Shown: in pieces, positions 23,686 through 53,705 of the stretch
How the letters are laid out: every line of letters starts with the position of its first letter
Position numbering within the stretch: position 1 is the stretch's first letter
Source of the DNA: Desulfatiglandales bacterium
GTDB lineage: Bacteria; Desulfobacterota; DSM-4660; Desulfatiglandales; Desulfatiglandaceae
Direction: 5' to 3'
DNA length: 64,000 nt
Assembly (NCBI GenBank): GCA_963662465.1
Contig: OY759599.1
Span: 4,768,001-4,832,000 of the forward strand
Program-made: the position numbers and the translations under genes
Notes under the pieces: model-generated
Seen by the model: the letters and a program-made list of their open reading frames with translations, nothing else
Database searches by the model: none
What the model was told of the DNA's origin: nothing

Positions 23686-24792
23686 TCAGAGGGCTTTTGT
23701 AAATACAGAAAGAAGCCTGTCCACCACATCCGAAGTTTGAAATCGACCCGCTTCAATCAGCCCCAACGCTGAAAGGGTGCGTTGCCGATCCACGTCTGTC
23801 AAAAGACATGAAACCCTTTCCGCAAGGGAAAAAATATTCGAACATTGGAAATACTCCGCAGCGGACCTTGCGATGTACCTATGACCGGGAGTATCTGAAA
23901 GGACAGCGGGAAGGCCTGATGAAAGCGCTTCCAATGCCGGAAGGCCGAAACCTTCTTCGGGATGAGAAGGACCGATAAAAAGATCGGCCTGCTGATAAAT
24001 TCGAGACATCTGTTCTGTTGTAATATGGGCGAAATAATTATCAGCCATGAAAAGAGCCTCTTCTTCCGGGGACGGAGGATTTGGCGATACCCGGGTTAAA
24101 CGAAATGTCGCTCCGGATCTCCTGATTCTATCTAGTGCCAACAGTGCTTCTCGAATGCCTTTAACATCGGCTTCAAAAATACCCACCAGGAGAATGGTGG
24201 GCGCAGCTCGTCCGAGGCATCTTTTTTCGGGGGCTGAAAATTCTGAACGGTCAAAGGTTTGTCCGATGTAAGTAACAGGCGCGTAGCCCAGAGTTTGTAG
24301 ACGTTCGGCAATGTGTGGAGACACCGAAAGTTTGTGAGTAGGTTTGGCATAGGCGGCTTCAATTTTCCTTTTAATGGGACGGTAAAAGGAAAAATCCGCC
24401 TCATAACCCTGACAAAGGTGAAAAACAGCGCCTTTATAATTATGCACAGCAAAAGATACAGTACTCCAGAATGTAGCCACACGAATATCTGCTGTTTGAA
24501 GAGCCTTTGAAAATTGAAATGGAGACGCTTCCCAACGAGCTGCATGAAGGACACTCCAGTCCGGCTGAGGTTCGGGGCAAACCACTGACACGGAGTGCCC
24601 CCTTTTTGCCAGTTCTTCCGCCTGCTGGCAAATAACACGCAACCCTCCTGAAAGGGTGTTGGAAGCTGCAAGGTAAGCAATGTGCATCTTTTCCGGTGTA
24701 ACCATTTTTTCCCTTTTCGCGAAAGCGCATATCGTTTTCATAAGCAACCAGACCCGCACAAAAAAATCCCTTATTTTTTTGTTTGCATCCAA
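23686..24792 (-). CDS. GT4 glycosyltransferase (start may be further downstream)
   Basis: SGGLRV, ATFWST, EEGFGLPALEALSSGLPAVLSD. Confidence 0.88.
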   Translation of the reverse strand: MDANKKIRDFFVRVWLLMKTICAFAKREKMVTPEKMHIAYLAASNTLSGGLRVICQQAEELAKRGHSVSVVCPEPQPDWSVLHAARWEASPFQFSKALQTADIRVATFWSTVSFAVHNYKGAVFHLCQGYEADFSFYRPIKRKIEAAYAKPTHKLSVSPHIAERLQTLGYAPVTYIGQTFDRSEFSAPEKRCLGRAAPTILLVGIFEADVKGIREALLALDRIRRSGATFRLTRVSPNPPSPEEEALFMADNYFAHITTEQMSRIYQQADLFIGPSHPEEGFGLPALEALSSGLPAVLSDTPGHRYIARSAAEYFQCSNIFSLAERVSCLLTDVDRQRTLSALGLIEAGRFQTSDVVDRLLSVFTKAL

Positions 24793-26426
24793 TCCCCGGC
24801 CCTGGCCGATTTCGAAACAGCAAAGACCACAATGTCAACATCTTCATAAATGGGATTGCCAAAAAGTCTTTTAAAACTTTTTGCATTCCGGCCTTTTGAG
24901 GGATCGGCGGGCAGGACAATATTGACTTCATCCTGAAGATTTTTGTGGAAAACCAAAAAATCGACGCCCAGGACTCGAAAATCCTCGATAGACCCGACGG
25001 TTTTCAGTCTGATGCCCTGATCAGATTCGAACATGTGTTCTCCGGTTATCCCCATAATGACTCTTTGTCCATGTACTTCCTGATAGAGCAGGAGATGGCT
25101 TGCCTGCCAGGAAAAAGGCGCTTCAACGATAACCATGCTACCGTTTGATTGGAGGGCAAGACACTTGTAGAAATCTGGAACACGTTTAAGTATCCACTGG
25201 TATTTTTGGCCGGCAAGGGCATGGACCAACAGCATAAGACTCGTTCCGTTATTGGGCCGATAGCTCACCGCTAAAAGGGGCCCACCCCATAAAAAAGCGG
25301 CACAAACAGAGATCGGAATTACAACCCTGGCCCATTTTCCAGGCACACGGGGAAATTTTAATGAGGCCGCATGGGTCCCTTTTGAAACTACGAGCAACAA
25401 GCAGGGCAGCGCCGGCAGCAGATACCTCGCAAGGATGTGGGGGGAATCGATGCCGATCGGCTGAACCAGGAAAATCGTGGACATCTGCAACAGGGAGAGC
25501 GTCATAAAAAGAAGGGTAAAAACAAGTGAATCAACCAACATCCTGTTAATACCAAAAAGGGCCAAGAGGGCTATTAATACCACAATGGCCCCTTGGTCCA
25601 TGCCCGTAAGAATTCGAAATGCAACCGCAAGTTGAGGAAACCCAAAGGTTGCCTGGCCTGCTTTTGTTGAGATGGCGCCAAAATCACCGTAGATGGGTGG
25701 GGCCAACAGGATCAAAAGGGGAACAATGACGACAGTACCCAAACCAGCAAGCCGCAAAAGGGCATGGACCGCATTTTTGCGTTTTCCGGCAATAGTCAAA
25801 ACAAAGAAGAAAAGGAATGGACCCAGAACAAACGGTAAATCCACCAGAAGGGCATAGCCCGTTGCAATCGTCGATATGGCATACAATATTGCGTCTTGTT
25901 TTTTGTTTTGCTCCCACCATCTGAAGAAAAAGATACCCGAAAGGAAGGCAAAACATGTTGTCAGTGCGTAGGGTCTTGCGAAACGGCTATAGAAAATCAG
26001 GGTGGGCGACAGCGCCAAAAACCATGCAAAAATATTTGAGACGCTTCGTCCGACCATTGGACGAATCATTATGGGCAGGATTAATACGGTGAGGGTCCCT
26101 CCAATAAAAAATGGCGTTCTGATGCCTATTTCAGAAAGGCCCACAGTATCCATGAGGATCTTGTAGTAGAGGGTTATGGGAATCGAGCGATCCGCGGCTC
26201 CAAAACTGCATATAATTTCGAAGTACCCGGCGTTTGCGGCTGCATGAATAGCATGCCATTCATCTCCAAACAGAATTTGCTTCGGTAATTGGTACAGGCG
26301 CAATGATGCACCGAAAATAATGGCGCAGAAAAGCAGCGACTCTCGCTTTAATAAATCTGTAAACCGAGGGAACAGGCCATGAATATGCGGGGATTGCAGA
26401 GATGAAGGCATGTATGATTGAAGCAC
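24771..26426 (-). CDS. GT-C (ArnT/PMT-like, GT39/83) membrane glycosyltransferase
   Basis: LRLYQL...FGDEWH, LYYK, IRTP, YSRFARPY, RYLLP; multiple TM helices and periplasmic C-terminus. Confidence 0.75.
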   Translation of the reverse strand: MLQSYMPSSLQSPHIHGLFPRFTDLLKRESLLFCAIIFGASLRLYQLPKQILFGDEWHAIHAAANAGYFEIICSFGAADRSIPITLYYKILMDTVGLSEIGIRTPFFIGGTLTVLILPIMIRPMVGRSVSNIFAWFLALSPTLIFYSRFARPYALTTCFAFLSGIFFFRWWEQNKKQDAILYAISTIATGYALLVDLPFVLGPFLFFFVLTIAGKRKNAVHALLRLAGLGTVVIVPLLILLAPPIYGDFGAISTKAGQATFGFPQLAVAFRILTGMDQGAIVVLIALLALFGINRMLVDSLVFTLLFMTLSLLQMSTIFLVQPIGIDSPHILARYLLPALPCLLLVVSKGTHAASLKFPRVPGKWARVVIPISVCAAFLWGGPLLAVSYRPNNGTSLMLLVHALAGQKYQWILKRVPDFYKCLALQSNGSMVIVEAPFSWQASHLLLYQEVHGQRVIMGITGEHMFESDQGIRLKTVGSIEDFRVLGVDFLVFHKNLQDEVNIVLPADPSKGRNAKSFKRLFGNPIYEDVDIVVFAVSKSARAGDWMQTKK

Positions 26427-26498
26427 AAAGAGGCCTTAAACGCCGTATGACAAACGTACAGGCCTCTTACTTAACCACAGAGAGTAGCTTTTTTGGAC

Positions 26499-26535: not shown

Positions 26536-26552
26536 TGACGATGACCTAAAAA

Positions 26553-27620
26553 TCAGGGAACGATAAAACTTTCAAGGATTGCATCCCAGTTGGCTGACGT
26601 GCCGGAGGATGGTTTTGCGTTGGTTATGGAAAAAGCGTATAGTTGTCGGCCTGATTCCGGATCCGGAATGTCGCGAATGGAAACCCATCCGTTGGTATCG
26701 CCTGCTACATTAATGATATTAACCACCTTGTCGAGCCGGATCATATCATCCACCACGGTGCTCCCCTCTTCGTCGAATTGCTTGTAAGTATAGGTAGAAT
26801 CACAGGCGTGTGTATCGCAATAAATCGAAGGTCCACCCACAAAGTTGGTATCCCAGGCAAAGAGAATAATTCGAGTGCTGGCGTTAAAAGAAGGACTCAG
26901 AAACACCCTGGAATCCACTTTTGCGATAACCGGATTGTCAGGGCAAGGGCCGGCGCCGCCGGAGGCTAAAATCCCAGCACACGCCCTGGCAGCGGCGTCA
27001 ATTGATTCCTGTTCATCGGCTGCGGAAGTCCCATAAAAATTGCTGAGGAACCCATCAACGCCGGGGCCCACCCAGTTTATGGGAATCATGTCAAGGCTGT
27101 TCGATGATCCCTGGGCCAACCGTACATAATAGATGAAGCCTTCGAGAGAGTTGTTGGTAGATCCCGTGGCAAAAGGGTAACCGCTTTCGGTCGGATTTTT
27201 AGTGGTTTCAGCTGTCACCACGTCAAGAGTCACGAACCCACGATAGAAATCACCATCCGTCAATGCGGTTTTCACCGCTGAAGTAGCGCCGTCAATCAGG
27301 GTCCTCATGGATACCGACCATGTTGCAGACCCGTTCAGATCCTCATCGTTGAAAAGGTCCACGGCATTGCCGTTGATATCCCACACGTGATAATGGATCA
27401 TCCGCTGTGATGCCATAACATTGGTTACGGCTAAGAGCGTGTCAATGGGGTCCTGTGCAGAATTGATACCCACTTCAAAAAAAGGGACAATCAACGTCGC
27501 CGCCGGCGTTTTATCGGGTGTACCCGGGATACCGGCAAAAGAAGATGGGGCGGCCGCAAAAGTTAGACCGGTTGCAAAAAATACCAAAAGAAAAATTGCC
27601 AAACAAGTTATCTTTTTCAT
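26553..27620 (-). CDS. Secreted protein of unknown function, paralog of 32060-33214
   Basis: Sec signal MKKITCLAIFLLVFFATGLTFA; RBS AGGAGG; shared blocks with the 384-aa protein. Confidence 0.85.
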   Translation of the reverse strand: MKKITCLAIFLLVFFATGLTFAAAPSSFAGIPGTPDKTPAATLIVPFFEVGINSAQDPIDTLLAVTNVMASQRMIHYHVWDINGNAVDLFNDEDLNGSATWSVSMRTLIDGATSAVKTALTDGDFYRGFVTLDVVTAETTKNPTESGYPFATGSTNNSLEGFIYYVRLAQGSSNSLDMIPINWVGPGVDGFLSNFYGTSAADEQESIDAAARACAGILASGGAGPCPDNPVIAKVDSRVFLSPSFNASTRIILFAWDTNFVGGPSIYCDTHACDSTYTYKQFDEEGSTVVDDMIRLDKVVNIINVAGDTNGWVSIRDIPDPESGRQLYAFSITNAKPSSGTSANWDAILESFIVP

Positions 27621-27889
27621 TTTTTTCCTCCCTTTCTACTGTAAATTGACGTTCGTTAAAAAAAACCAATTCAATTTATACAGCTAAGAAATTTCTAATG
27701 GAAAGTCAATAGAATTTTTTTCCGGCAATTAAAAGATCTTGGCCAAAAATCTGCTGCCGAAATGCGGTTTATCACTCACCCAACAGAAAATGCACGTTGA
27801 CAGGCGTCTCGCAGAGCTTTATATTTTTCGCGAAAGGTCGCTTTTTTAAAAAATTCAGAAGTTCTTTTGCTGATTGTGAGAATTCTATA

Positions 27890-29095
27890 ATGAACCCCCT
27901 GATAACCATTTTATGGCCTGCGTTACCAGCGCCCGCGATTGATGAGATTGCCTTCTCTTATGATTTCTGCAGGAAGATGAGTAAACGATTTTGCGAAGAC
28001 CTGTCTTTTGCAGTTTCATGGAAAAACTATACGCCTGAAACAGCCCTTTGCGAAACGCTTTCAAGCAATCGGAGTCAAATGCTCCTTGTTGTAACGGAAC
28101 CTGAACTTATCCTGCCGCCAAGCGCTATTGCCGCACTGGCTAAATGCATACAGGAAGGGCATATCGCATCAGGCCCGGTTTTCAACCAGACTCTTTTTGA
28201 CGGACAAGCAGCCGCCCTGCCTTCCCCATACCTCGACATTGCATCCCTCCTGGAAGTTGCGGAGTCGATTTTCCATCAGTTTGCCGGAAAATATATACCC
28301 GTCAGCACATTAGACCCGGCATGCATACTGTATCGCACGGAATTTCTTGCAACCTATCATTCCAAACAGCTTATATCGGAGCTTGCGGGGCTACTCCCAA
28401 CGATGCAAAGCAGCAAATCTCAGGCCATTGCGCCCGGCGCACTCGCCCATGCAGGCTTCCAACGAAGCTTTCAGTCAGAGCGAAGCGACCTGGCAAGCCT
28501 TGTTCCGGAGGGAATAAAAAGCGTCCTTGACGTGGGATGCGCCATGGGGGGGTACGCAAAAACGGTGAAAAAATTGCGCCCTGAACTGACCATCACCGGA
28601 ATAGAATTGAATCCACTTATGGCCGAAGAAGCACGCCCCTACTATAATGAAATAATCATTCAGCCTCTTGAAGAGGTTCGCTTAAACAAAAAGTTTGATC
28701 TGGTGAACTGCGGGGATATTTTGGAGCACCTTCAGGACCCATGGGTAATGTTGAAGCGCTTGCACGCCCTGCTTTATCCAGGCGGATACCTGGTCATGAG
28801 CGTTCCCAACGCGGGGCATTGGACCATTGTCAGAGGATTGTTGAAAGGAGAATTTGAGTATGTGCCTTTAGGACTTCTCTGCATCGGACACCTTCGTTGG
28901 TTTACGGAATCGAGCCTTCTTCAGATTCTGTCTGAGACTGGATTTATTCCTGATGAATTCCAGAGGCAACAACTGCCGCCGACCCAGAAAGGAGAAGCCT
29001 TTATCCACGACATGTGCACCGGGAGCTATGGAAATGAGCAATCCCTGCGAACCAATGAGTTTATCGTCCGTGCCCGCAAGATACCCATGTCATAA
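27890..29095 (+). CDS. SAM methyltransferase with degenerate GT2-like N-terminal region
   Basis: VLDVGCAMG, GIELN, FDLVNCGDILEHLQDPW, SVPN, HLRWFT; start at ATG 27890. Confidence 0.8.
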   Translation: MNPLITILWPALPAPAIDEIAFSYDFCRKMSKRFCEDLSFAVSWKNYTPETALCETLSSNRSQMLLVVTEPELILPPSAIAALAKCIQEGHIASGPVFNQTLFDGQAAALPSPYLDIASLLEVAESIFHQFAGKYIPVSTLDPACILYRTEFLATYHSKQLISELAGLLPTMQSSKSQAIAPGALAHAGFQRSFQSERSDLASLVPEGIKSVLDVGCAMGGYAKTVKKLRPELTITGIELNPLMAEEARPYYNEIIIQPLEEVRLNKKFDLVNCGDILEHLQDPWVMLKRLHALLYPGGYLVMSVPNAGHWTIVRGLLKGEFEYVPLGLLCIGHLRWFTESSLLQILSETGFIPDEFQRQQLPPTQKGEAFIHDMCTGSYGNEQSLRTNEFIVRARKIPMS

Positions 29096-29139: not shown

Positions 29140-30033
29140 TCACACTGAAGGCATCTCTATGGGTTGGGCTCTCCTTTTGTTTACCGTTCGCACAACGTAT
29201 TGGGAGCAATGCTCAGGCTTAATACTTTGTTTATCATTGGGACGCCAGTCGTCTGGATAGCCGTAGCGCTCGATATATGCGTCAAAAAACGGCTTGAAAA
29301 ATGAGACATCCTCCTCCAAAAACCAGTTTTTCCAGTTGTTATACGTCAGGGTGCGCGGAACATGGTCATGGACGGGGTCGACATGTGGTTCTCCAGTCAA
29401 CGGAAATCCCAGATACTCCTCCAGGCCCTCCAATTTTCCATCCACAAAATCCTCATATTTCACAGGACAATAATCATCCAGTCGGTTTTCAAATTCCACG
29501 AGCCAGCGATACTGAAACCCCAACCATTCTGTCACTTGCCGGAAGGAATGCAGATCACTTTCATCAACAATCCGTTCAAAAAGACGGCACAGAGAAATAC
29601 TTTTGGGATCGGCTTCCTTTTGCCGCAGAAGGTTTAGAATGCGCACCAGCCTCTCGTCATTGTTATAAATACTTGGTTCCTGTTGAATAATAAACAGGAT
29701 GCCGCTGACCATTAAATCCCTTGGGTCCCTGCTGAGATAAATCTTTTTTTCAAATGCGAGAAAATCACTGTACTTTACGTTTTCAGGACCCTCCCCGGCG
29801 CCCAGGATGGTTTTTGACAGAACCCAGGAACCCGCATCGCCATTTTCCCGCAGATACCGCCGGGGTTCAAACAAAGTTCGAACGGTGCCGGACAAGGAGT
29901 TCTTTATTTTATAAAAAAGCCCTGTAGTCCCAGATTTATATGGGCCAAAAATGACAACACGGCATGGCTTGACATCCTCTTGAAATTTTACCATTATTCT
30001 TTGCCTCAAACGGGAAAAAATATCAGTGCGCAC
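29140..30033 (-). CDS. Sulfotransferase-like P-loop protein
   Basis: GPYKSGTT (5'-PSB-like), LSRDPRD...S (3'-PB-like), VKYEDFV, WKNWF. Confidence 0.7.
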   Translation of the reverse strand: MRTDIFSRLRQRIMVKFQEDVKPCRVVIFGPYKSGTTGLFYKIKNSLSGTVRTLFEPRRYLRENGDAGSWVLSKTILGAGEGPENVKYSDFLAFEKKIYLSRDPRDLMVSGILFIIQQEPSIYNNDERLVRILNLLRQKEADPKSISLCRLFERIVDESDLHSFRQVTEWLGFQYRWLVEFENRLDDYCPVKYEDFVDGKLEGLEEYLGFPLTGEPHVDPVHDHVPRTLTYNNWKNWFLEEDVSFFKPFFDAYIERYGYPDDWRPNDKQSIKPEHCSQYVVRTVNKRRAQPIEMPSV

Positions 30034-30123: not shown

Positions 30124-30582
30124 TTATTTCGGAGAGACGTTTATATTTTTTGAGATGACATGCTTCCACTCATTATCTTTCAGCAGCCATCTGTCAGAAA
30201 AAGAGGAATTCACGGGCTTTGGAATATCTTGCAGCTGGTAAACCACTTCCAGGGTAACAATACCATCTTGTCCTCCTATGTTCACCCCTTTCGTTTTTAC
30301 TGATATATATCCGATTTGCCCCTTGTTTGCCATAAGCATTTTATATTTTTCTAGGGTCATGGCCCCTTGAACCGCCTCCATAGCGTAGGTGGCATTGTAA
30401 TCTTTTTCGAGAAACCGCTTGTTCCAATACGTTTCAGCCATTTTACCAAGAGTTTCCTTGGGGTCCTTTACTTTCTGATTTTCTTTTTGGCACGCGCCAA
30501 GGGCAAAGACCCCTAAGAATACAAACAACAGGCAAACGACGCCATCCCGCGACCATTTCTTGCCCTGGAAAAAAAACATCAT
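30124..30582 (-). CDS. Small lipoprotein of unknown function (NTF2-like fold possible)
   Basis: Lipobox ALGAC; ETYWN...DRW...EWKH pattern. Confidence 0.75.
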   Translation of the reverse strand: MMFFFQGKKWSRDGVVCLLFVFLGVFALGACQKENQKVKDPKETLGKMAETYWNKRFLEKDYNATYAMEAVQGAMTLEKYKMLMANKGQIGYISVKTKGVNIGGQDGIVTLEVVYQLQDIPKPVNSSFSDRWLLKDNEWKHVISKNINVSPK

Positions 30583-30624: not shown

Positions 30625-31917
30625 TCAACTATCACTTCTGGGCACGTTCAAAAAAACTTGGACCCCCCCTTCTTTTGTGCCACTTTTAGCATAGTTAACA
30701 GCAATATCACTATAGCTGTCGCCATTAACGTCAACACAGTAAATACCAGAAATCCTTTCCAGACCTTCTTTCGGCAAACCGTCAACTTTTATTTCAGCCC
30801 ACTTTTGCCCTTTTAGAGAATATATTTTGATTCCGCCCTTTTGGGTGCCACCAATAATTTCAATATTTCTGTCATTATCCAGGTCACACGCGTTTATCGC
30901 TTCAAAAATCTCACTTGTTGGAAGACCTTCCGAAAAATCTTCAAACCCCTCAGGCCCAGCCAGAAAGGCTTTGAGCCCTACAAAACCTTTTTTTCCAAAT
31001 CCTGAAATACTGGCAACCAGATCATCCTTCCCATCCCTGTTCAAATCGGAAAGGGCAACAGACAGATAAATCTTTTCCTTAGGCAACCCATCGTTGAATT
31101 CTCTAAACTCGCCTTTTCCGTCATTAATCCAGATGACCAGGTCCATCTTAGAATTAAGAGAGGCGACTGCAATATCCGGGTTCCCGTCCCCATTCACGTC
31201 GCCAACCGTCAACTGGTCAGCCGCTAAACCGTTCACAGCTTCTTCGTCTGCAATATATCGAAATTTCCACCCATCAGGCGCCAAGGAAATCATCGCAACA
31301 CCATAGGGCGTTGCAAAATCATCAGAAAATTTAAATTCAGACATAGCGGCGATATCGAGACGGCCGTCCCTGTCAAAATCATCCGCTAGCAACGCTCTGG
31401 ATTTAAAATTCCGATCATAGAGTCCCTTTGAAAAATCTTCATATTTTCCATGACCTTTCCCCTTAAGCACTCGCACACCAATCCCATGCATCGCCAGGGC
31501 CATATCTGGAATGCCATCACCATCAAAATCGCGGCCGGAGATACCACCGTAAGTATACTTAATTTTGTCCGCAGGCACTTCAATATCAGCTTGGAACCAT
31601 TCACCCTTGCCGTTGCCATACCAGATAAACGGGATAGACGTACCATTTGGCTGAGGAGTCGTTCGAGGAGGCGGCGCTAAAATATCCAATTGACCATCCT
31701 GGTTCATATCAAAAAAGTCGATGCCTTGACGCCATTGGCCCGTTGTCGGGAGACCGCCGGATGATCCGATAAAGACCAAATCATTTTTCACTTCTTTTAT
31801 TTCAGATGTATGGGATACAACTTTTTTATCCTCACAACCAAGCAATACACAAAAGGATATGAGTACACCGGCCCAAAAAACGTTGGGGATAGCTTTTCTC
31901 TTTTTGTTTGTTATCAC
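30625..31917 (-). CDS. FG-GAP/VCBS repeat (Ca-binding beta-propeller) lipoprotein
   Basis: Lipobox LLGC; seven DxNxDGxxD-type repeats (DMNQDGQLD, DFDGDGIPD, DFDRDGRLD, DVNGDGNPD, DLNRDGKDD, DLDNDRNIE, DVNGDSYSD). Confidence 0.88.
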   Translation of the reverse strand: MITNKKRKAIPNVFWAGVLISFCVLLGCEDKKVVSHTSEIKEVKNDLVFIGSSGGLPTTGQWRQGIDFFDMNQDGQLDILAPPPRTTPQPNGTSIPFIWYGNGKGEWFQADIEVPADKIKYTYGGISGRDFDGDGIPDMALAMHGIGVRVLKGKGHGKYEDFSKGLYDRNFKSRALLADDFDRDGRLDIAAMSEFKFSDDFATPYGVAMISLAPDGWKFRYIADEEAVNGLAADQLTVGDVNGDGNPDIAVASLNSKMDLVIWINDGKGEFREFNDGLPKEKIYLSVALSDLNRDGKDDLVASISGFGKKGFVGLKAFLAGPEGFEDFSEGLPTSEIFEAINACDLDNDRNIEIIGGTQKGGIKIYSLKGQKWAEIKVDGLPKEGLERISGIYCVDVNGDSYSDIAVNYAKSGTKEGGVQVFLNVPRSDS

Positions 31918-31982: not shown

Positions 31983-32014
31983 AAAAAGGTGGGCCCAAAA
32001 GGACCCACCTTTTT
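31983..32014 (-). terminator. Intrinsic terminator after the 384-aa gene (bidirectional form)
   Basis: AAAAAGGTGGGTCC-TTTT-GGGCCCACCTTTTT on minus strand. Confidence 0.85.
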
Positions 32015-33214: not shown

Positions 33215-33419
33215 GCTCTTTTCCTCCTTAAAAAATTATATTCTGAAAACTTAGTAATGTTAACACCCAAATCAACATCCCAATCCCGCTCTATTTGCTT
33301 CGTTTACCACCTCCTTAAACTAAAGATTTCGCATTCCCTCTTGATTTCGACTAAAACCCAACCTCTTTCCCTTAACAAAAAACCTCCAAGCATCCTTCAC
33401 ACATCAAATGGTCAAGCTC

Positions 33420-39900: not shown

Positions 39901-39934
39901 ATATAAAATTCCTTATTTTATTCGTCAGACTTTC

Positions 39935-44020: not shown

Positions 44021-44042
44021 CTAAAAACCCTTCTATTCAGAT

Positions 44043-44624
44043 TTAGTCATCCGACCGCTTTAAAAAACCGTTGATCGTAATATCGGCGTTAACGCTTTCC
44101 GCCGTCTTTGTCGTCCCGCGTCGCAATCGCCTTCGGCTGACAGTAATTCCCAGCTTTTCCACTGTCAAGTATTTTGAAGAGGTCATGATCTGGTACAGAA
44201 ATTCCTTTAGCTGCCGGACGGTGCCGGCGACGGACAATTGAACGGGAATGCTCAGATAGTGGTTTCCGCCCACATCCTCCGGCTTCAGGACCCGGACCGT
44301 TTTGATCCCCATTTGAGATTTATCCGCCATCTCACGCACGACTTTCTGAATATCCGCAGCAGCCAATGCGGGGGTTTTTCCGGTCAAAAGTCCGGACTCC
44401 CCCTGCTTGAGGGTTGCCTTTAAAACTGCAATATCCTTTTCCAGATTGTCGCCGGACTGAAACATCCGACGGTATTTGACAAGCTGTTTTTCCTTAAGTG
44501 CGATATTGCCGTCAGCACCGGAAATATCCTGTATTTGGGGCCATAGCCGGTATACGACCCCTACCATCAGAAGAAAGGCCATCGCTATTAAAAAATATTT
44601 TCTTTTCTTGTCTAGTTTAAACAT
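44043..44624 (-). CDS. gspM: T2SS protein M (PilO-like)
   Basis: TM plus coiled coil, ALAAADIQ, IPVQLSVAGTVRQLKEFLYQI. Confidence 0.8.
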   Translation of the reverse strand: MFKLDKKRKYFLIAMAFLLMVGVVYRLWPQIQDISGADGNIALKEKQLVKYRRMFQSGDNLEKDIAVLKATLKQGESGLLTGKTPALAAADIQKVVREMADKSQMGIKTVRVLKPEDVGGNHYLSIPVQLSVAGTVRQLKEFLYQIMTSSKYLTVEKLGITVSRRRLRRGTTKTAESVNADITINGFLKRSDD

Positions 44625-44631
44625 TTTGTCT

Positions 44632-45996: not shown

Positions 45997-46017
45997 GAAT
46001 AGTCCCTCTGAAAAAGG

Positions 46018-47067
46018 TCATTCGTTTGGTTTTGCGGATGGACCTGCCGGCAATGTCGCACGGTCGTTCCACTGAACCACGCGGTAACCCTTTTTGATGG
46101 TGCGATTGATCTCCACCACGGCCTCTACGCCTTGCCGCGTTCTGCTGTCGGCAATCTTTCCCTCGGACACAATCTGATAATAGGCACTGGGGGTCAGGGT
46201 AATATAGCGAGAGATGGCCCCATATACTTCGGCGCCCAGAAGCGTGGCAACTTCTCCCAAAGATTTGAAATCCGCCTCTTTTCTGAAGACCATAATCGAT
46301 TGGGCCAGGTCGCCGGTCATTTGCGGCAAAGAAAGCAACATGGCCCTGGATGCGGCATTAATGCAGATTTTGGACCCGCCAGCCTTGGTGGACCCCCTTC
46401 TGACTTTCCCCCGCCTGGAACCGCTGTCCTGAAATGCCGTCACCATACGGTTGAGGCCGCCATAAAATATTTCCGGTGTGATCCCCCGGACCATGAGCAG
46501 CTCTTCTATGGCGTCAAAATTACCATTTTTGCAGTCATAGGGCTTCGGAAGAGATTGATAATAGTCATTCTCCGCGCCGTTCAACCCATGAAGATCGTTT
46601 TCGTCCCGCCAGTCGATAATGGAATCAACAATAATGCTTTTTTCCTGTTCCTCAAGGTCAAATCCGTTCAACATCATCTTCAAAAGAGATTCATCCGCGT
46701 CGTTAAGATTGATCTTCCCCGCTTCATTTCCGATGCGCACTAAAAACTGCCCCTGTGCAAAAGGAACCGGCGGGATATCGGTATTCATCCGCCAGCGCGG
46801 CGATGTTTCAGCCGCCGCTTCATCGTCATTTCCAAGCAGTTTATTTTTCTTTGGAGAAAATTCATTTCGGATCAATTCGGTTACGGCACGGTTAAAACCC
46901 GCCAGGGCAATGTAATAGGCCTCGGTTTGTTCCTTGAAATTGCGGACCATATTGACCTCAGTCCGCATGGCAAAACAAAATTCCGTTGCAATGGCAGAGA
47001 GGAGGATCAACACCCACAGCACCATAAAAAGCGCCATCCCCTTCTCATGGGTGAACTCTTTTTTCAT
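46018..47067 (-). CDS. gspK: T2SS minor pseudopilin K
   Basis: G-MALFMVLW N-terminus, GKINLN, IIDWRDEND, GAENDYY, ELLMVRG. Confidence 0.92.
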   Translation of the reverse strand: MKKEFTHEKGMALFMVLWVLILLSAIATEFCFAMRTEVNMVRNFKEQTEAYYIALAGFNRAVTELIRNEFSPKKNKLLGNDDEAAAETSPRWRMNTDIPPVPFAQGQFLVRIGNEAGKINLNDADESLLKMMLNGFDLEEQEKSIIVDSIIDWRDENDLHGLNGAENDYYQSLPKPYDCKNGNFDAIEELLMVRGITPEIFYGGLNRMVTAFQDSGSRRGKVRRGSTKAGGSKICINAASRAMLLSLPQMTGDLAQSIMVFRKEADFKSLGEVATLLGAEVYGAISRYITLTPSAYYQIVSEGKIADSRTRQGVEAVVEINRTIKKGYRVVQWNDRATLPAGPSAKPNE

Positions 47068-47077
47068 GATACGTCGG

Positions 47078-47743
47078 TTACTCTTTCCGGCACCGAATCG
47101 GCACGATCACGTCAATGGGCGCCGCGTCTTTACTTTGCTGGAGAACAATTTTCACCGCAAGCGGCATCCCTTCATCTTCAGGAGAATGCCAAGCGGTTTG
47201 CCAGTTCGTTTTGCTTTCCTCTTGCGTCTCTTTCAGAAATTCAAACTGAAAATCTTGAATGCCTGAAATCAAGGTAACGAAATCTTCGTCTTTCCAACCC
47301 TCAAGGTCTTCCTCTTTCAGGAAACCCGCATCTTTCTCGTAGAGCATGAGCCGCATTTTCCCTTTCCCGCCGGTCTCCTGAACCATGTATTTCACGAAAA
47401 CCACGCCGGTAAGCGCTCCCGGCACAATGGGGTTGCGGGAAACAAATGCCATGGTCTTTTCGGAACCGCTAAAAACCAGGGGTTCATCGCCCACTTTTAT
47501 CTCATGGATGAAGGCGCTTGCAATCTGTTGCGCCATGAGCCCTAAAACGGCCCGCTGCCGCTGCTCGATGTCCGTATCTTTTTCGCCCTTTTCCCACGCC
47601 CGCGTGCCAATCCTGAGAGCGCCGAAAATAATCAGCAGAATGACCCCCAAAATGGTTAGCGACAGCATGAGTTCCAAAAGCGTAAAGCCTGAAGAACCGG
47701 AAGTTAAATATGGGATACGGGATATGAAACGTTGCCGGGCCAT
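47078..47743 (-). CDS. gspJ: T2SS minor pseudopilin J
   Basis: GFTLLELM prepilin motif; MPLAVKI near C-terminus. Confidence 0.85.
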   Translation of the reverse strand: MARQRFISRIPYLTSGSSGFTLLELMLSLTILGVILLIIFGALRIGTRAWEKGEKDTDIEQRQRAVLGLMAQQIASAFIHEIKVGDEPLVFSGSEKTMAFVSRNPIVPGALTGVVFVKYMVQETGGKGKMRLMLYEKDAGFLKEEDLEGWKDEDFVTLISGIQDFQFEFLKETQEESKTNWQTAWHSPEDEGMPLAVKIVLQQSKDAAPIDVIVPIRCRKE

Positions 47744-47761
47744 TGTTTAAAAAAAACCGTT

Positions 47762-48187
47762 CTACCCCTCCTTTTTCTTTTCAACCGCTTTCAGGGTGTT
47801 AATGGTAAAGTTTTTTTCCTTTTCGCCTTCACGCCAGGCAATGTTAACCTTGATGTTCAGCAAATCAAAGGGTAGGTTTTCTTCCGCCTCTTCAGGGACG
47901 ATTCGGGTGATAACGGTTCGCCACTGATAAGCATCCTCAAATTCCCCTTGGGTTTCTCCTTCCAAGTAATCCGGGGAAAGCTGCATTTCCGCCATTTTTT
48001 CCCTGGCATGAAATATGCCCCGCGTGTATTGTTCCGACAATTTGCGTGATTTAAGGCCGCCTGAAAAAAGCTGTAGAATGACGACCAGAGAAATGGCCAG
48101 GACGGAAGTGGCCACAAGAATTTCAATGAGTGCAAACCCTCCGGTTATCCCGGGCGACCTTGTCCCCGCCATCTGATCCGGCTTCAT
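47762..48187 (-). CDS. gspI: T2SS minor pseudopilin I
   Basis: GFALIEILVA motif; size and position. Confidence 0.85.
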   Translation of the reverse strand: MKPDQMAGTRSPGITGGFALIEILVATSVLAISLVVILQLFSGGLKSRKLSEQYTRGIFHAREKMAEMQLSPDYLEGETQGEFEDAYQWRTVITRIVPEEAEENLPFDLLNIKVNIAWREGEKEKNFTINTLKAVEKKKEG

Positions 48188-48684
48188 GAGGCCTCCACAC
48201 GCACCGTGCCGGTAATAAAGTCGATTTTGATAGCGAATTCATGCTTGCGATTATTTTCTAAAAGGACGGTTCCCCCGCTGCTGCAGCCGCTGGGCATAAA
48301 GACAACGGCAAAAAAACGAGAATCGCTTTCACTGCCGTCAAAGGCCCGTGCGTCCTTAAATTTCACATCCCCCGGCAAGGTATAGCGCTTTATCCGATTT
48401 TCGCCCGGTTTCAAAGGGGCGGTTTCATCTTCCTTGTCCGTGGAATTTATATCGGACTTGATGGTCATCCGATTTTGATTGAGATCCAAAAGGGCAACGT
48501 AGGGCACACTTTCCGTTATGGCCCGACTCCTGGCGTATCTCAGGGAGGCCGCCACTCTTTTTGAAGCGGTTTTTAATGCCACATTGCTGAGGGTGCCGGC
48601 CACCTTCGGAACCACAAATGCCGAAAAGACACTGATGATCACCAGCACCACCAACAACTCAATCAGTGAAAATCCCTTTTTCAT
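48184..48684 (-). CDS. gspH: T2SS minor pseudopilin H
   Basis: GFSLIELLVV, LRYARSRAI, FMPSGCSSGG, ITGTV. Confidence 0.85.
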   Translation of the reverse strand: MKKGFSLIELLVVLVIISVFSAFVVPKVAGTLSNVALKTASKRVAASLRYARSRAITESVPYVALLDLNQNRMTIKSDINSTDKEDETAPLKPGENRIKRYTLPGDVKFKDARAFDGSESDSRFFAVVFMPSGCSSGGTVLLENNRKHEFAIKIDFITGTVRVEAS

Positions 48685-48735
48685 CCCAAAGCGGGCGATG
48701 CCCGCAACCCCAAGGTATTTAAAACCCGCAATTCT

Positions 48736-49182
48736 CTAAGAACCGGCGTCTTCCGCATCCCCGTCCCGATTGGAAATATCCTTATCTTCGCCCTCTCCGC
48801 CTTCGGTTCCGTTAGCCCCCAGAGAAATCATCTCAACTTCGCCGTTGTCGGCTCGCCTGTACATATAAGGATGACCCCATGGATCCTTGGGCAATGCCTT
48901 TGACAGATAGGGCCCGTCCCATTTTTCTTCATCGCCGGGGTTGGTTCTGAGGGCCTGAAGACCCTGCTCCGTTGTGGGATATTTGCCCACATCCAGCCGG
49001 TAGGTATCCAGCGCGGTTTCAAAGAGGGCCATCTGCGATCGGGCCGCGTTCTGCTTTGACTTGCCCACCTTTCCAAACATGCGGGGTCCCACCAAGGCCG
49101 CCAGAAGCCCCATAATAACCATGACAATCAATAATTCAATCAGACTGAACCCCATTTCATTTTTTTTTCGCTTCTTCATCAT
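48736..49182 (-). CDS. gspG: T2SS major pseudopilin G
   Basis: GFSLIELLIV, YRLDVGKYPTTEQGLQAL, WDGPYL, PKDPWG, GEGEDKDI. Confidence 0.95.
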   Translation of the reverse strand: MMKKRKKNEMGFSLIELLIVMVIMGLLAALVGPRMFGKVGKSKQNAARSQMALFETALDTYRLDVGKYPTTEQGLQALRTNPGDEEKWDGPYLSKALPKDPWGHPYMYRRADNGEVEMISLGANGTEGGEGEDKDISNRDGDAEDAGS

Positions 49183-49201
49183 AACTCCTTTCGCGTTCCC
49201 G

Positions 49202-50431
49202 TCAAAAAGGCATTTCATTCATACTGAATACGGCCATGAGCATGGAAACCACCACAAACCCCACGACGAGTCCCATGAGCAGGATCATGGTCGGTTCCAA
49301 CAGGCTGATGAGCCGTTTGACCATATTCCGAACCATTTTTTCGTAACTTTCCGCCACTCGCAAAAGCATGCGGTCCAGTTTTCCCGTCTCTTCTCCCACA
49401 GTGATCATCTGAATGGCAAGGGGCGGAAAAATCCCCGTATCCCGCAACGGTTTTGACAAGCGGTCCCCTTCCTTCACCCGGGCATAGACGTTTTCCATTG
49501 CCTCTGAAATGACCCTGTTCCCCACAATGTCTTTGACCAGCATAAGGGCCTGCAAAATAGGAACGCCGCTTTTTGTCAATGTTCCGAGGGTTCTGGCAAA
49601 CCGGGCCACCTCAATTTTCTTGACGAGATCCCCCACCACGGGAAATTTCATTTTTTTGCGGTCGAATTTCAAACGTCCCGCAGGCGTTTTCAGATACTTT
49701 CTCAAGAAAAAATAGGCCGCTCCCAATACGGCCAGAATGGCCCACCAGTAGGATTGCAGCAGCTCGCTAATCCCCAGCAAAAGCTGGGTGCTGAGGGGAA
49801 TGGCTTGGCCCATGTCCGAGAAAATAATCGAGAATTTGGGAATAACAAAGGTCAGGAGTATAATAATGGACAACCCTCCCACGCCCACCAGAAAAATAGG
49901 GTACACCATGGCTGATTTGATATAATCTTTAAGTTCCTGGGAGCTTTCCATGAACTCCCCCAACCGGCTCAGAACCGCCTCCAAAACGCCTCCGGCCTCT
50001 CCGGCCCGCACCATGCTGACGTAAAATGAGGTGAAAGCCTTTGGGTGCTTTGCCAGGGCATCCGATAGATATCCGCCGCCCTGAACAGTTTTAAGGATAT
50101 CGCCCACCACCATTTCGAATGGTTTTTTTTCAGCGGATTCAATCAACAGGGAAAGCGCCCGATCAACCGGCAGGCCGGCTTCCAGCAAGGTGGCAAGATC
50201 CTGGGTGAAAACCATAACGTCTTTGGAAGAGACGCCATTCAGGAGACCGAGAAACTGCTCGCCAAGATTCGATGCCAACCCCTTGCCGTTCCCTTTGGCC
50301 TGAATGATCCGCATGGGAATCAGACCAAGGGCCTGCAGTTGGGCAACCGCCTTCTTTTCTTCATCCGCTTCAAGGGTTCCGGTAACAATTTTGCCGGCGC
50401 TGTCAGCGGCTTTGTATGAGTATGTGGTCAT
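49202..50431 (-). CDS. gspF: T2SS inner membrane platform protein F
   Basis: FTQDLATLLEAGLP, RAGEAGG, AMVYP, VGEETGKL, LLEP. Confidence 0.95.
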   Translation of the reverse strand: MTTYSYKAADSAGKIVTGTLEADEEKKAVAQLQALGLIPMRIIQAKGNGKGLASNLGEQFLGLLNGVSSKDVMVFTQDLATLLEAGLPVDRALSLLIESAEKKPFEMVVGDILKTVQGGGYLSDALAKHPKAFTSFYVSMVRAGEAGGVLEAVLSRLGEFMESSQELKDYIKSAMVYPIFLVGVGGLSIIILLTFVIPKFSIIFSDMGQAIPLSTQLLLGISELLQSYWWAILAVLGAAYFFLRKYLKTPAGRLKFDRKKMKFPVVGDLVKKIEVARFARTLGTLTKSGVPILQALMLVKDIVGNRVISEAMENVYARVKEGDRLSKPLRDTGIFPPLAIQMITVGEETGKLDRMLLRVAESYEKMVRNMVKRLISLLEPTMILLMGLVVGFVVVSMLMAVFSMNEMPF

Positions 50432-50433
50432 GC

Positions 50434-51951
50434 TTAGTTTTCAAGGGTGGCTTTCAATATCTCGGGAATGGTGGTGACCCCCGCCTTCACTTTTCGCCAT
50501 CCGTCCTGCCGGAGCGTCAACATTCCCGATTTTACGGCCACTTCCTTGATTTGCTCGGCGCTCGATTTCCGGATGATCTCTTTTCGAATCCGCCCGGTCA
50601 CGGGCAGGTATTCGAAAATAGCGGTTCTGCCTTTGAACCCTGTGTATCGGCACGCTTCGCAGCCCTTGCCCTCGAAAAACCCTATTTCATTTGCTTCATC
50701 AGAACTTATTTCCATGGCCTTTAGAAGCCTTTCTTCCGGTTCAATCGGTCGTTTGCATTCAGGACAAATGACCCTGACAAGCCGCTGGGCCAGGACCCCC
50801 AGGAGAGTCGAACTCAGGAGGAAACTCTCCACGCCCATGTCCAAAAGCCTTGTAATGGCCCCCGCCGCATCGTTGGTATGGAGCGTACTGAACAGCAAAT
50901 GCCCGGTCAAAGCGGATTGAATGGCAATCTCGGCGGTTTCCCGGTCCCGAATCTCCCCAACCAGGATAATATCCGGATCCTGCCGCACAATGGACCGAAG
51001 TCCACTGGCAAAGGACATGCCGATTTTCTGGTTCACCTGAATCTGGTTCACGCCGTTGAGCTGGTATTCAACCGGCTCCTCCAGGGTTATAATCTTGTTT
51101 TGTGGTGAATTGATTTTGGCAAGGGTGGTGTAGAGGGTGGATGTTTTACCGCTCCCCGTGGGGCCGGTCACCAGAATCATGCCGTAAGGCTGGGTGGTCA
51201 GTTGCTTATACTGCACCAGTACATTGTCGGGAAATCCCAGCTTATCAAGATCCAGGATCAGGGTGTCTCGATCCAGTATCCGCATGACCAGGCTTTCTCC
51301 GAAAAGGGTGGGGATGGTTGAAATCCTGAAATCAATTTCCTTCTCCGAAATCCGCAACTTGATTCTGCCGTCCTGGGGAAGTCTTCTCTCCGCAATATCC
51401 AGCTTGGCCATGATTTTAACCCTGCTGATAATGGCGGCCTGCAGACGATGGGGAGGCGATTCCACATCATGAAGGACCCCATCTATTCGGTATCGCGCTT
51501 TAAATTCATTTTCAAAGGGCTCAAAATGGATATCGCTGGCTTTCTGTTCCACCGCATTAAAAATCAACCGGTTCACCAACCGGATGATGGGGGCTTCCGA
51601 CGCCAGATCCCTTAAGTGATCCTCATCCTCAACATCACCGGCGGAAATGTCGTAAATATCCTTTCCCGCTTCCTCTATGATGGTTTCAAGGGATTGACTG
51701 CCCGCCCCGTACAATCGTTCAACGGTGTCAAGGATGTCGCCTTCTTTTCCCTGACAGACCCGAATGTCCAAACCGTATGTGACCTTCAAAGCGTCAATGG
51801 TATAAAAATCTTCCGGATCGACCATGGCGATTTCAAGAAAGTCATCCCCCATGGCCAGTGGAACGAACAGGGATTCCCGCATCATCTTGTCGGAAAGATT
51901 GTCTAATACCACCGGCTCTTTAGGATAATCTTTAAAAGTGATAGGGGTCAT
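50434..51951 (-). CDS. gspE: T2SS ATPase E
   Basis: ASDIHFEP, GPTGSGKT, RQDPDIILVGEIRD, STLHTN, CPEC/CEAC. Confidence 0.95.
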   Translation of the reverse strand: MTPITFKDYPKEPVVLDNLSDKMMRESLFVPLAMGDDFLEIAMVDPEDFYTIDALKVTYGLDIRVCQGKEGDILDTVERLYGAGSQSLETIIEEAGKDIYDISAGDVEDEDHLRDLASEAPIIRLVNRLIFNAVEQKASDIHFEPFENEFKARYRIDGVLHDVESPPHRLQAAIISRVKIMAKLDIAERRLPQDGRIKLRISEKEIDFRISTIPTLFGESLVMRILDRDTLILDLDKLGFPDNVLVQYKQLTTQPYGMILVTGPTGSGKTSTLYTTLAKINSPQNKIITLEEPVEYQLNGVNQIQVNQKIGMSFASGLRSIVRQDPDIILVGEIRDRETAEIAIQSALTGHLLFSTLHTNDAAGAITRLLDMGVESFLLSSTLLGVLAQRLVRVICPECKRPIEPEERLLKAMEISSDEANEIGFFEGKGCEACRYTGFKGRTAIFEYLPVTGRIRKEIIRKSSAEQIKEVAVKSGMLTLRQDGWRKVKAGVTTIPEILKATLEN

Positions 51952-52030: not shown

Positions 52031-53005
52031 CTATTCCTTAAAATAGTCAATGACGCTCTGGATGATGCTTTCCAGATCATGGGACGGCTCAAACCCGATG
52101 ATGTTTTTCAGTTTGCTGATATTGGGACATCGCCTTTCCATGTCCTCAAAACCAGGACCGTAAGCTTTTTCGTAGGACATATAGTCAATTTCAGACTGAC
52201 TCCCCGTCATCTCTTTGACTTTGAGCGCCAGATCGTTAATGGTCACTTCTTCATTGTTGCCCACATTGAAGACATCGCCTTCCGCCGCGGGTTCATCCAT
52301 CAACCGGGTGATGGCCTCCACCACATCGTTGACATGGGTAAAACTTCGACTCTGGGTTCCATCCCCATAAACGGTGATGGGCTTTCCGAACAAGGCGCTC
52401 TGAACAAAAGTGGGCAAAACCATGCCATACTGTCCGGTTTGCCTGGGACCTACGGTGTTAAACAATCGACCGATCAATATGGGCAGTTTTTTTTCATCAA
52501 AGTAAGCGAGGGCTTGAAATTCATCCAGTGTTTTTGAGCAGGCATAGGCCCATCGACGCTTTTTGACCGTCCCCATGACCCGGTTGTCGTCCTCCGACAA
52601 ATCGTGCGCCACATGCTTGCCGTAAATCTCAGAAGTGGACGCGATAAAGACCTTTTTCTTGAATCGATTGGCCAGTCTCAATACCACTTCAGTCCCTTTG
52701 ACGTTGGTATCCAGCGTCTCCACCGGATGGTCCATGATATTCCTGACACCCACCGCAGCCGCCAGGTGGTATATCTGATCCACCTTAAAAATCAGCTCGT
52801 TCATAACGGATTCATTTAAAATGGTGTCAATGACCAGATGCACCCGATCATGGCCCTGTATCTTCGAGATGTTGGCCAGTTTTCCGGTCCATAAATTGTC
52901 AATAATAAATACCTCGTTCCCATTTTTCAGCAAATGCTCCGCCAAATGCGAACCGATAAAACCGGCGCCCCCTGTGATTAAAATCTTCATATCATCCTCC
53001 GTCAT
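52031..53005 (-). CDS. NAD-dependent nucleotide-sugar epimerase/dehydratase (UDP-glucuronate decarboxylase-like)
   Basis: TGGAGFIGSH, HLAAAVG, STSEIYG, YACSK, RLFNTVGPRQ. Confidence 0.9.
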   Translation of the reverse strand: MTEDDMKILITGGAGFIGSHLAEHLLKNGNEVFIIDNLWTGKLANISKIQGHDRVHLVIDTILNESVMNELIFKVDQIYHLAAAVGVRNIMDHPVETLDTNVKGTEVVLRLANRFKKKVFIASTSEIYGKHVAHDLSEDDNRVMGTVKKRRWAYACSKTLDEFQALAYFDEKKLPILIGRLFNTVGPRQTGQYGMVLPTFVQSALFGKPITVYGDGTQSRSFTHVNDVVEAITRLMDEPAAEGDVFNVGNNEEVTINDLALKVKEMTGSQSEIDYMSYEKAYGPGFEDMERRCPNISKLKNIIGFEPSHDLESIIQSVIDYFKE

Positions 53006-53141
53006 TCCCCGGCCTTAGTTCGGACACACAAAAGCCCGAAACGCCATCCATTACAGCTCCGCCCCTTCGGTCACAGGCGATGAACCGCTTATATGTTTAA
53101 TTTAACTGCAAAAAACATGACCCTAGCCGTCAGGGGATAAG

Positions 53142-53705
53142 CTATTCCGCAATCCTCTCAAGGGACCAGCCTTCAATTTCCACCTCCAGGGATCTATGCA
53201 ACAGTTCAACGGATACCACGACCTGATCGGTTTTGTTCTTGTGTCGAACATAAAAACCTTCCAAACCCTTGAGAGGCCCCTCCATGATCATCACGCGGTC
53301 GCCTTTCCGCATGTAGGTGCGGTTTTGCACTGTTCGGTCAGTGCCGTCCAAGATCATCAAAGAAGAGATCTCGTGATCATCGGCGGGAACGGGTTTTCCT
53401 TTGAAAGCGACCATCCGAACCACACCAACCGTTTGGATAATGCGATAGTATTCCTCGGGTGCAAGGGCCGACCGGACAAAAACATAACCCGGAATCAGGG
53501 GCGCCAATATCTTTTTCCGTCGGTCTTTTCGACGGCTCATCACCTCAATTCGCGGAAGAAAAGCCTCAAGGGATTTTCCGCAAAGCCCGGCATGGACTTT
53601 TTGCTCAAAACGGCTTCGCGTATGCAGCGCCCACCATCTTGCAGACGCCGCAATTGAATCCGTCATGGCTTCAGTTTCTAAAATAACCTTTCCGCTCCTG
53701 TTCAC
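53142..53705 (-). CDS. Specialised NusG-family antiterminator (UpxY/RfaH/LoaP-like)
   Basis: WWALHTRSRFEQKV, PLIPGYVFV (NGN); GDRVMIMEGPLKGLEG (KOW); not in a secE-nusG-rplK context. Confidence 0.9.
   Translation of the reverse strand: MNRSGKVILETEAMTDSIAASARWWALHTRSRFEQKVHAGLCGKSLEAFLPRIEVMSRRKDRRKKILAPLIPGYVFVRSALAPEEYYRIIQTVGVVRMVAFKGKPVPADDHEISSLMILDGTDRTVQNRTYMRKGDRVMIMEGPLKGLEGFYVRHKNKTDQVVVSVELLHRSLEVEIEGWSLERIAE

What the first reader, a model, noticed from the sequence alone, without database searches (positions are those of the whole stretch)
24771..53705. Candidate dedicated surface-layer export and glycosylation system: antiterminator, T2SS, Wzm/Wzt and a family of unknown secreted proteins
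Seen: a NusG paralog heads a closely spaced minus-strand run of epimerase-gspEFGHIJKLMCD-wzm-wzt-GT2-GNAT. It is followed (after an IS) by a strongly signalled secreted 384-aa protein, two lipoproteins, a sulfotransferase-like gene, a paralog of the secreted protein, and GT-C and GT4 genes. Known: Aeromonas exports its S-layer through a dedicated T2SS-like pathway and has a glycan ABC ATPase gene (abcA) beside the S-layer gene, and Bacillaceae S-layer glycosylation clusters use Wzm/Wzt plus methyltransferases. Inference: this T2SS exports the 384/355-aa family to build a glycosylated or glycan-anchored lattice. I know of no description of this for the protein family or lineage.
Basis: partly seen in the sequence, partly recalled or inferred. 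Interest (0 to 1): 0.82.

Follow-up and report, generated by a model that had tools for sequence, protein, structure and literature searches.

The report
Surface-coat locus of anaerobic sediment bacteria
A conserved gene block pairs a second protein-export machine and sugar-chain genes with an unnamed 40-kDa protein that likely forms a crystalline cell coat, a likely compact cousin of the known NpdA coat protein, so the layout is known but the protein family, its small partner lipoprotein and this lineage were not found described.

Summary
The genes are there as described, plus one missed plus-strand gene. The genome has a second, separate T2SS. The 384-aa gene lies downstream of this T2SS in 13 of 21 related loci examined. 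It has its own perfect sigma-70 promoter (1 of 12 in 8.2 Mb), a conserved internal Shine-Dalgarno box and a strong terminator, and is the most divergent gene of the block. These are marks of an S-layer gene.

The layout is published: Aeromonas A-layer, Slr4 and NpdA. A Comamonas NpdA-type locus has the same gsp order, wzm/wzt and the same small lipoprotein (E 4e-15). Similarity of the 384-aa family to NpdA-like proteins is weak but above controls (HHalign 75%). In 105 family genomes the two types never co-occur (22 and 12). Both window paralogs fold as two beta-sandwiches, the first ASRT-like.

The glycan more likely anchors the lattice as LPS O-chain than decorates it. The 355-aa paralog type is usually solitary. 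No lattice, export or expression is shown. The scan noted similar layouts on other DNA before. Verdict: new variant of a known kind.

The parts
53987..54063 (-). tRNA-Pro(CGG) directly upstream of the block
53142..53705 (-). UpxY/RfaH-like NusG paralog (antiterminator)
   Evidence: NF033644 over cut-off; 68-94% identical in 4 relatives
53053..53074 (-). Conserved ops-like element (core GGCGGAGCT), likely loading site of the antiterminator
   Evidence: in 8 of 9 upxY-epimerase gaps aligned; function inferred
52031..53005 (-). NAD-dependent sugar epimerase/dehydratase
43220..51951 (-). gspE, F, G, H, I, J, K, L, M and a GspC-like gene without PDZ domain
   Evidence: closer to the Comamonas NpdA-type T2SS than the genome's second T2SS is (GspF 35 vs 29%, GspE 49 vs 45%)
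40809..43214 (-). GspD secretin; probable start near 43079, followed by a lipobox (LAGC), so likely a lipoprotein secretin
   Evidence: TIGR02517 over cut-off; sequence; 756-aa ortholog in G010
38713..40753 (-). wzm and wzt (with Wzt_C domain), glycan ABC exporter
35971..38703 (-). GT2 glycosyltransferase and methyltransferase-GNAT fusion
   Evidence: fusion domains weak
34001..35662 (+). IS4-family transposase, single copy, upstream of the 384-aa gene's promoter
33420..33447 (-). Perfect sigma-70 consensus promoter (TTGACA-16-TATAAT) of the 384-aa gene
   Evidence: 1 of 12 perfect sites in the genome; 11-12 of 12 matches in 12 of 16 family loci
33306..33316 (-). Internal Shine-Dalgarno box in the leader, 102 nt before the start, with no conserved start codon behind it; likely an mRNA stabiliser
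   Evidence: 15 of 15 leaders aligned; RNase J present
32060..33214 (-). 384-aa secreted protein (mature about 40 kDa, pI 4.2, no Cys), candidate main S-layer subunit, two beta-sandwich domains
31983..32014 (-). Intrinsic terminator-like hairpin after the 384-aa gene
   Evidence: -28 kcal/mol; sequence; not listed by the simple scan
30625..31917 (-). FG-GAP repeat lipoprotein
   Evidence: found in 18 of 105 family genomes, all 18 also carry the 384/355 family
30124..30582 (-). 152-aa lipoprotein of no known family, conserved partner gene; homologous to the gene just before the Comamonas NpdA-type gene
29140..30033 (-). 297-aa protein, sulfotransferase only by a recalled motif
   Evidence: no library hit
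27797..29095 (+).
26553..27620 (-). 355-aa paralog (4 Cys), likely a minor or accessory lattice component; its type is mostly solitary elsewhere
23686..26426 (-). GT-C (PMT_2-like) membrane glycosyltransferase and GT4

Best explanation
The 384-aa protein is likely the main subunit of an S-layer, a likely compact distant relative of NpdA, that would be exported by the T2SS encoded upstream and would be held on the cell by an O-polysaccharide that Wzm/Wzt likely export. Steps: (1) Shown in sequence: the gene has its own perfect promoter, a leader of about 200 nt, an internal SD box, a strong RBS and a terminator. Inferred: a very abundant, stable monocistronic mRNA. (2) Shown: a Sec-type signal peptide. 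Inferred: it folds in the periplasm and exits through this accessory T2SS. (3) Inferred: the UpxY paralog loads at the ops-like site and carries transcription through the 17-kb epimerase-gsp-wzm-wzt-GT operon. (4) Inferred by analogy with Aeromonas and Delftia: the glycan becomes LPS O-chain, which the ASRT-like domain would bind. (5) Inferred: the 152-aa lipoprotein is a dedicated assembly or anchoring factor. The 355-aa paralog is likely a minor component.
For: Synteny: gsp genes upstream on the same contig in 13 of 21 loci of the 384-aa type (12 seen; G009 from coordinates). A second T2SS with ExeA and PDZ-GspC exists elsewhere. Promoter, SD box and terminator are conserved. It is the most divergent gene of the block: 24-48% identity in 11 relatives, and 37% in G010 whose six gsp genes scored are 91-98% identical. 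The Comamonas odontotermitis locus reads gspEFGHIJKLM-?-D, lipoprotein, 'cell surface protein', PPIase, wzm, wzt, MTases, GT2; that species is in the NpdA ortholog table. The 152-aa lipoprotein profile hits the gene before it (E 4e-15; HHalign 97%). Signal-trimmed profiles align over domain 1 (75%, 142 columns; reversed control 0.05%). In 105 family genomes, 22 carry this family and 12 an NpdA-like protein, none both; 27 of 41 genomes with this GspL type carry one, against 7 of 64 without. Five of 9 distant genomes fetched have the gene beside wzm/wzt. LpxC and O-antigen-ligase-type domains are present, STT3 was not found. NpdA assembly needs LPS (PMC3110197) and wzt loss removes O-antigen in Aeromonas (PMC4483657).
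Against: No lattice, export, abundance or binding is shown. Homology to NpdA is weak: with the narrow NpdA profile and signal peptides removed it fell from 90% to 34%; the single Comamonas protein scored 9.6 bits against a shuffled best of 8.6; domain 2 aligns at only 5%. P0415 is taken as NpdA from species, context and size, not by comparison with the published sequence. None of 9 distant genomes showed gsp genes in the stretch fetched (60 kb in two of them), and 0 of 45 loci of the 355-aa type did. 14 of 41 genomes with this GspL type gave no hit to either profile. Codon bias was not distinctive (94th percentile, neighbours score as high). No solved S-layer matched the models. Kin are not independent, so the co-occurrence counts overstate.
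Confidence: 0.68

Rival explanations
1. Same lattice and export, but the Wzm/Wzt and GT-C genes put glycans on the protein itself (S-layer glycoprotein). Not exclusive of an LPS anchor.
For: GT-C/PMT_2-like gene in the block and a membrane-TPR protein upstream; five Wzy_C-domain genes in the genome, some of which could be protein O-oligosaccharyltransferases; NpdA is called glycosylated in the introduction of PMC3958437.
Against: No STT3/PglB found; no extended bacterial N-sequon in the 384-aa protein; glycan genes vary between relatives and wzm/wzt were not beside the gene in G026; in Aeromonas the same layout makes O-antigen; an S-layer gene among glycosyltransferase genes showed no glycan in Methylomirabilis.
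Confidence: 0.25
2. The protein is abundant and secreted but forms no crystalline coat: a sugar-binding matrix, fibre or adhesin protein.
For: The best fold match is ASRT/TM1070, a predicted sugar-binding fold, not a solved S-layer; the 355-aa type is a solitary, often multi-copy gene in Thermoanaerobaculia.
Against: It shares the partner lipoprotein, gene context and weak domain-1 similarity with NpdA-type proteins and replaces them genome by genome.
Confidence: 0.15
3. The T2SS is only co-located in an envelope island, or serves other cargo (FG-GAP lipoprotein, the S8 protease at 218-2026), and the 384-aa protein can use either T2SS.
For: Distant carriers lack adjacent gsp genes; 14 of 41 genomes with this T2SS type showed no family hit; several have sensor and TonB-receptor genes after gspD instead.
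Against: Order is kept across at least 5 genera of the family; the same T2SS type sits beside NpdA-like genes in G492, G493, G012 and G035 and in Comamonas.
Confidence: 0.14

Closest known systems
NpdA S-layer locus of Delftia acidovorans Cs1-4 and Paracidovorax citrulli (PMC3110197, passages read; PMC10765051, parts 1, 3, 4, 5 of 7 read, supplement unreadable)
   Same: Sec signal peptide, upstream 12-gene gsp cluster; in the Comamonas locus also the same gsp order, the small lipoprotein, wzm/wzt, methyltransferases and GT2; weak domain-1 profile similarity.
   Different: 40 kDa against about 52 kDa; similarity is at the limit of detection; wzm/wzt lie between T2SS and coat gene; FG-GAP lipoprotein and UpxY paralog added; anaerobic Desulfobacterota-type host, whereas the papers list only Beta- and Gammaproteobacteria. 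The parts read do not mention the lipoprotein or wzm/wzt.
Aeromonas salmonicida A-layer locus (spsE-L T2SS, vapA, inside the wzm/wzt O-antigen cluster; PMC4483657, passages read)
   Same: Accessory T2SS, S-layer gene, Wzm/Wzt, sulfotransferase-domain gene, epimerase and a JUMPstart/ops element in one block; lattice tethered by LPS.
   Different: No sequence link to VapA was found (no PDB or family hit); VapA was not compared directly.
Slr4 S-layer of Pseudoalteromonas tunicata (PMC7821379, passages read)
   Same: S-layer gene directly downstream of a conserved T2SS cluster, Sec signal peptide.
   Different: Only faint Atlas feature scores (0.76-0.80, chance range); no PF19526 hit.
ASRAH superfamily (ASRT, TM1070; PMC2739507, parts 1-2 of 3 read)
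   Different: 5-6% identity, no sequence hit; none of the three described families; no S-layer role described in the parts read.
STAB-SD mRNA stabiliser of Bacillus thuringiensis cry3A (PMC4113751, passages read)
   Same: SD-like box about 100 nt before the start, no conserved start codon behind it, RNase J in the genome.
   Different: Described there for Gram-positive bacteria; function here untested.

Membership tests
NpdA S-layer proteins | Sequence ortholog of NpdA (BLASTP over most of the length) | tested here: inconclusive
   The published NpdA sequence could not be fetched. Against the stand-in P0415 there is only profile-level similarity in domain 1 (34-75% after signal trimming). It would not count as a BLASTP ortholog of the stand-in.
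NpdA S-layer proteins | Sec signal peptide, no known domain | tested here: met
   sequence; no signal-peptide predictor was run
NpdA S-layer proteins | Upstream cluster of about 12 gsp genes | tested here: met
   11 gsp genes, 7.6 kb upstream
NpdA S-layer proteins | Mature size near 52 kDa | tested here: not met
   40.2 kDa and 35.5 kDa
NpdA S-layer proteins | Forms a tetragonal, LPS-dependent lattice and SDS-resistant oligomers | not testable with these tools
   needs EM and biochemistry
S-layer loci with a dedicated T2SS (Aeromonas type) | Accessory T2SS beside the coat gene, in addition to another T2SS | tested here: met
S-layer loci with a dedicated T2SS (Aeromonas type) | Wzm/Wzt glycan cluster and ops element with RfaH-like factor | tested here: met
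   the element resembles ops by a recalled consensus only
S-layer loci with a dedicated T2SS (Aeromonas type) | Export depends on that T2SS | not testable with these tools
   needs a knockout
ASRAH superfamily | Eight-stranded ASRT-type beta-sandwich | tested here: met
ASRAH superfamily | Sequence-profile relationship to ASRT; Trp and Asn signature | tested here: inconclusive
   no Pfam or PDB sequence hit; signature not mapped
Slr4 (PF19526) | Match to the Slr4 model | tested here: not met
   0 of 45 members at E<=1
S-layer glycoprotein with Wzm/Wzt (Bacillaceae type) | Covalent glycan on the S-layer protein | not testable with these tools
   needs MS

The most novel reading that the evidence does not exclude
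A large unannotated superfamily (1,304 clusters at 50% identity) unites these compact proteins with NpdA as S-layers built from tandem ASRT-like sugar-binding sandwiches. A universal small lipoprotein is their assembly factor. Lineages swap coat types in one genomic slot behind a fixed T2SS, and a Gram-positive-style STAB-SD mRNA stabiliser feeds the coat.
Probability: 0.35. Interest if true: 0.72.

Novelty: new variant of a known kind. Interest (0 to 1): 0.5.

Why it matters
S-layer proteins are hard to find by sequence, and none was found described for these sediment sulfate reducers. This gives a named candidate, markers to find others (the small lipoprotein, the promoter and SD box), and cultured hosts in which to test it. 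If the fold link holds, it offers a structural reason why NpdA needs LPS to assemble and names an overlooked lipoprotein that can be deleted in Delftia or Comamonas today. The overall system type is already known, which caps the interest.

Tried and rejected
Family libraries: no hit for the 384/355 family in Pfam (45 members) or NCBIfam (75 proteins, only signal-peptide noise), none for the 152-aa lipoprotein (25 members). PDB sequence searches gave nothing. Foldseek gave only TM<0.2 matches. Slr4 lead: chance-level scores, rejected. Methylomirabilis S-layer protein: read as a lead, has a C-terminal sorting domain that this protein lacks; not compared by sequence. No RNA holder listed, so expression is untested. 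Codon bias inconclusive. Internal repeat between the two domains only 25%. The first HHalign values against NpdA-like proteins (88-90%) were inflated by the signal peptide and were replaced by trimmed runs. Rfam found only the tRNA. The 384-aa plus 152-aa complex prediction was not run because the queue was full, so binding is untested. The NpdA paper's supplement (sequences, neighbourhood figures) could not be read; it may already show the lipoprotein and wzm/wzt. Searches for prior description: (open-access library only). Look-ups of earlier scan notes by sequence and by relatives were blank. G248 and G249 (2 of 11 distant genomes with hits) were not fetched; G507 was left out of the leader alignment.
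Full report
Observation. The 384-aa and 355-aa proteins have no library match and are paralogs over their whole length. They are the only two family members in the 8.16-Mb genome. A plus-strand methyltransferase-domain gene at 27797-29095 was missed. The IS4 element is single-copy and lies upstream of the 384-aa gene's promoter. The host is likely a Desulfatiglandales-type member of Desulfobacterota: named records with close relatives include NaphS2 (58% identity, same cassette, L050) and a Desulfatiglandales MAG.

Second T2SS. The genome has another T2SS at C1:6492523-6506733, with PDZ-GspC and ExeA, and another wzm/wzt pair near 7362000. The window's system is thus accessory. Its GspE, F, G and D are closer to the Comamonas NpdA-type T2SS than those of the second system are, though the margins are small.

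Neighbourhoods. Of 21 loci of the 384-aa type in the family, 13 have gsp genes upstream on the same contig, 6 have cassette neighbours but the contig ends first, and 2 are extra copies at contig ends with unrelated neighbours. The FG-GAP lipoprotein occurs in 18 of 105 family genomes, all with the family gene. In 9 distant genomes of the phylum that were fetched, the gene lies beside wzm/wzt in 5 and beside the 152-aa lipoprotein in 7, but no gsp gene was seen in any stretch. A Thermodesulfovibrio MAG has both paralog types with both lipoproteins (L054). The 355-aa type is different: 0 of 45 loci have gsp genes within 10 kb, 24 of them being 15 kb or longer, and 3 have cassette genes. The family is large: 1,304 representatives at E<=0.001.

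Gene anatomy. The 384-aa gene has a perfect TTGACA-16-TATAAT promoter 233 nt upstream, one of 12 in the genome. Twelve of 16 family loci score 11-12 of 12; 13 other window genes scored 9 or less. In 15 aligned leaders the -35 box and an internal A(A/G)GG(A/G)GGTG box are kept in all. That box complements the 16S 3' end, has no conserved start codon behind it, and the genome encodes RNase J. This fits a STAB-SD stabiliser (PMC4113751); it is inferred. A -28 kcal/mol hairpin follows the stop. The protein is the most divergent of the block (24-48%). Codon bias gave no clear signal and no RNA run was listed. Between upxY and the epimerase a GGCGGAGCT element is kept in 8 of 9 gaps, likely the antiterminator's loading site for the long operon.

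Link to NpdA. A distant family hit (P0419) found a Comamonas odontotermitis 'cell surface protein'. Its locus is rml, gspEFGHIJKLM-?-D, a 122-aa lipoprotein, the 510-aa protein, PPIase, wzm, wzt, methyltransferases, GT2. That species is in the NpdA ortholog table, and npdA has an upstream 12-gene gsp cluster (PMC10765051). I take P0415 as NpdA-type on these grounds, without the published sequence. The 152-aa lipoprotein profile, built without these loci, hits the 122-aa gene (E 4e-15) and both genes in front of Nitratiruptor homologues, the only 3 hits among 231 ORFs. Direct similarity of the coat proteins is weak. With signal peptides removed, HHalign gave 34% with an 8-sequence profile and 75% over 142 columns with a 15-sequence profile, reversed control 0.05%; 9 of 123 members scored over 10 bits, no reversed one did. 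In the family, 22 genomes carry the 384/355 family and 12 an NpdA-like protein, none both. Of 41 genomes with this GspL type (my count at E<1e-40), 18 have the first, 9 the second and 14 neither; of 64 others, 4 and 3. Many genomes are incomplete and kin are not independent.

Mechanism. Most likely the 384-aa protein is made in bulk from its own mRNA, crosses the inner membrane by Sec, leaves through the accessory T2SS and tiles the surface. The glycan more likely anchors than decorates it: LpxC and five Wzy_C-domain genes are present, STT3 was not found, NpdA reassembly needs LPS (PMC3110197) and Aeromonas wzt mutants lose O-antigen (PMC4483657). Protein glycosylation by the GT-C gene stays possible; NpdA is called glycosylated in PMC3958437. 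The small lipoprotein follows the coat gene even where no T2SS is near, and GspD has its own lipobox, so a role in lattice assembly is likelier than a pilotin role. Binding was not tested.

Comparison and verdict. The system works like the Aeromonas, Slr4 and NpdA loci. It is not a BLAST-level member of NpdA and fails the size feature. No paper describing this family, the lipoprotein or an S-layer in this lineage was found (PMC13343851 mentions S-layer only for archaea; PMC13721041 passages cover Aeromonas). Earlier scan notes report similar layouts in other genomes. Rating: new variant of a known kind, interest 0.5.

Noticed in passing
G000:C1 near 47139, 6998287, 7011310, 8104087: Near-copies of the ops-like element; two lie behind a MarR-like HTH gene and before what look like nucleotide-sugar genes (read by eye), suggesting a regulon of the antiterminator.
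   Followed up: partly
G012, G017, G035, G485, G486, G507 upstream of upxY (e.g. L088:1880-2458): A winged-helix-like gene sits before upxY in many relatives but not in this window.
   Followed up: no
L089:2925-10402 (G507) and G456, G457, G459, G028, G012, G016, G032, G484-G486: A recurring module of ABC substrate-binding protein, sensor, response regulator, TonB-dependent receptor and often a CAP-domain protein lies between the T2SS and the coat gene in relatives; absent here.
   Followed up: partly
L128 (Nitratiruptor plasmid NZ_AP023064): A 35-kb plasmid carries two NpdA-like genes, each behind a PPIase and the small lipoprotein, with an S8 protease and a glycosyltransferase: a mobile coat cassette in Campylobacterota.
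   Followed up: partly
L100:8842-10776 (G401): Family domain fused behind a long N-terminal domain and a Pro/Thr linker, beside two near-identical tandem family genes and wzm/wzt: possible cargo display on the coat.
   Followed up: no
window 218-2815: Secreted S8 protease with I9 inhibitor and an S74-domain protein at the far end of the glycan island; S8 protease genes also occur in G010 and G026 islands.
   Followed up: no
window 13041-16962: Transposase genes and a DruA fragment interrupt the glycan island.
   Followed up: no
window 55049-60954: Membrane-TPR protein, GT2, GT4 and a dnaA homolog flank the block; the order is kept in G004 and G010.
   Followed up: no
L084:9602-10825 (G004) and L142 (G486): A 355-type gene and an NpdA-like gene are each split into pieces; pseudogenes or assembly errors.
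   Followed up: no
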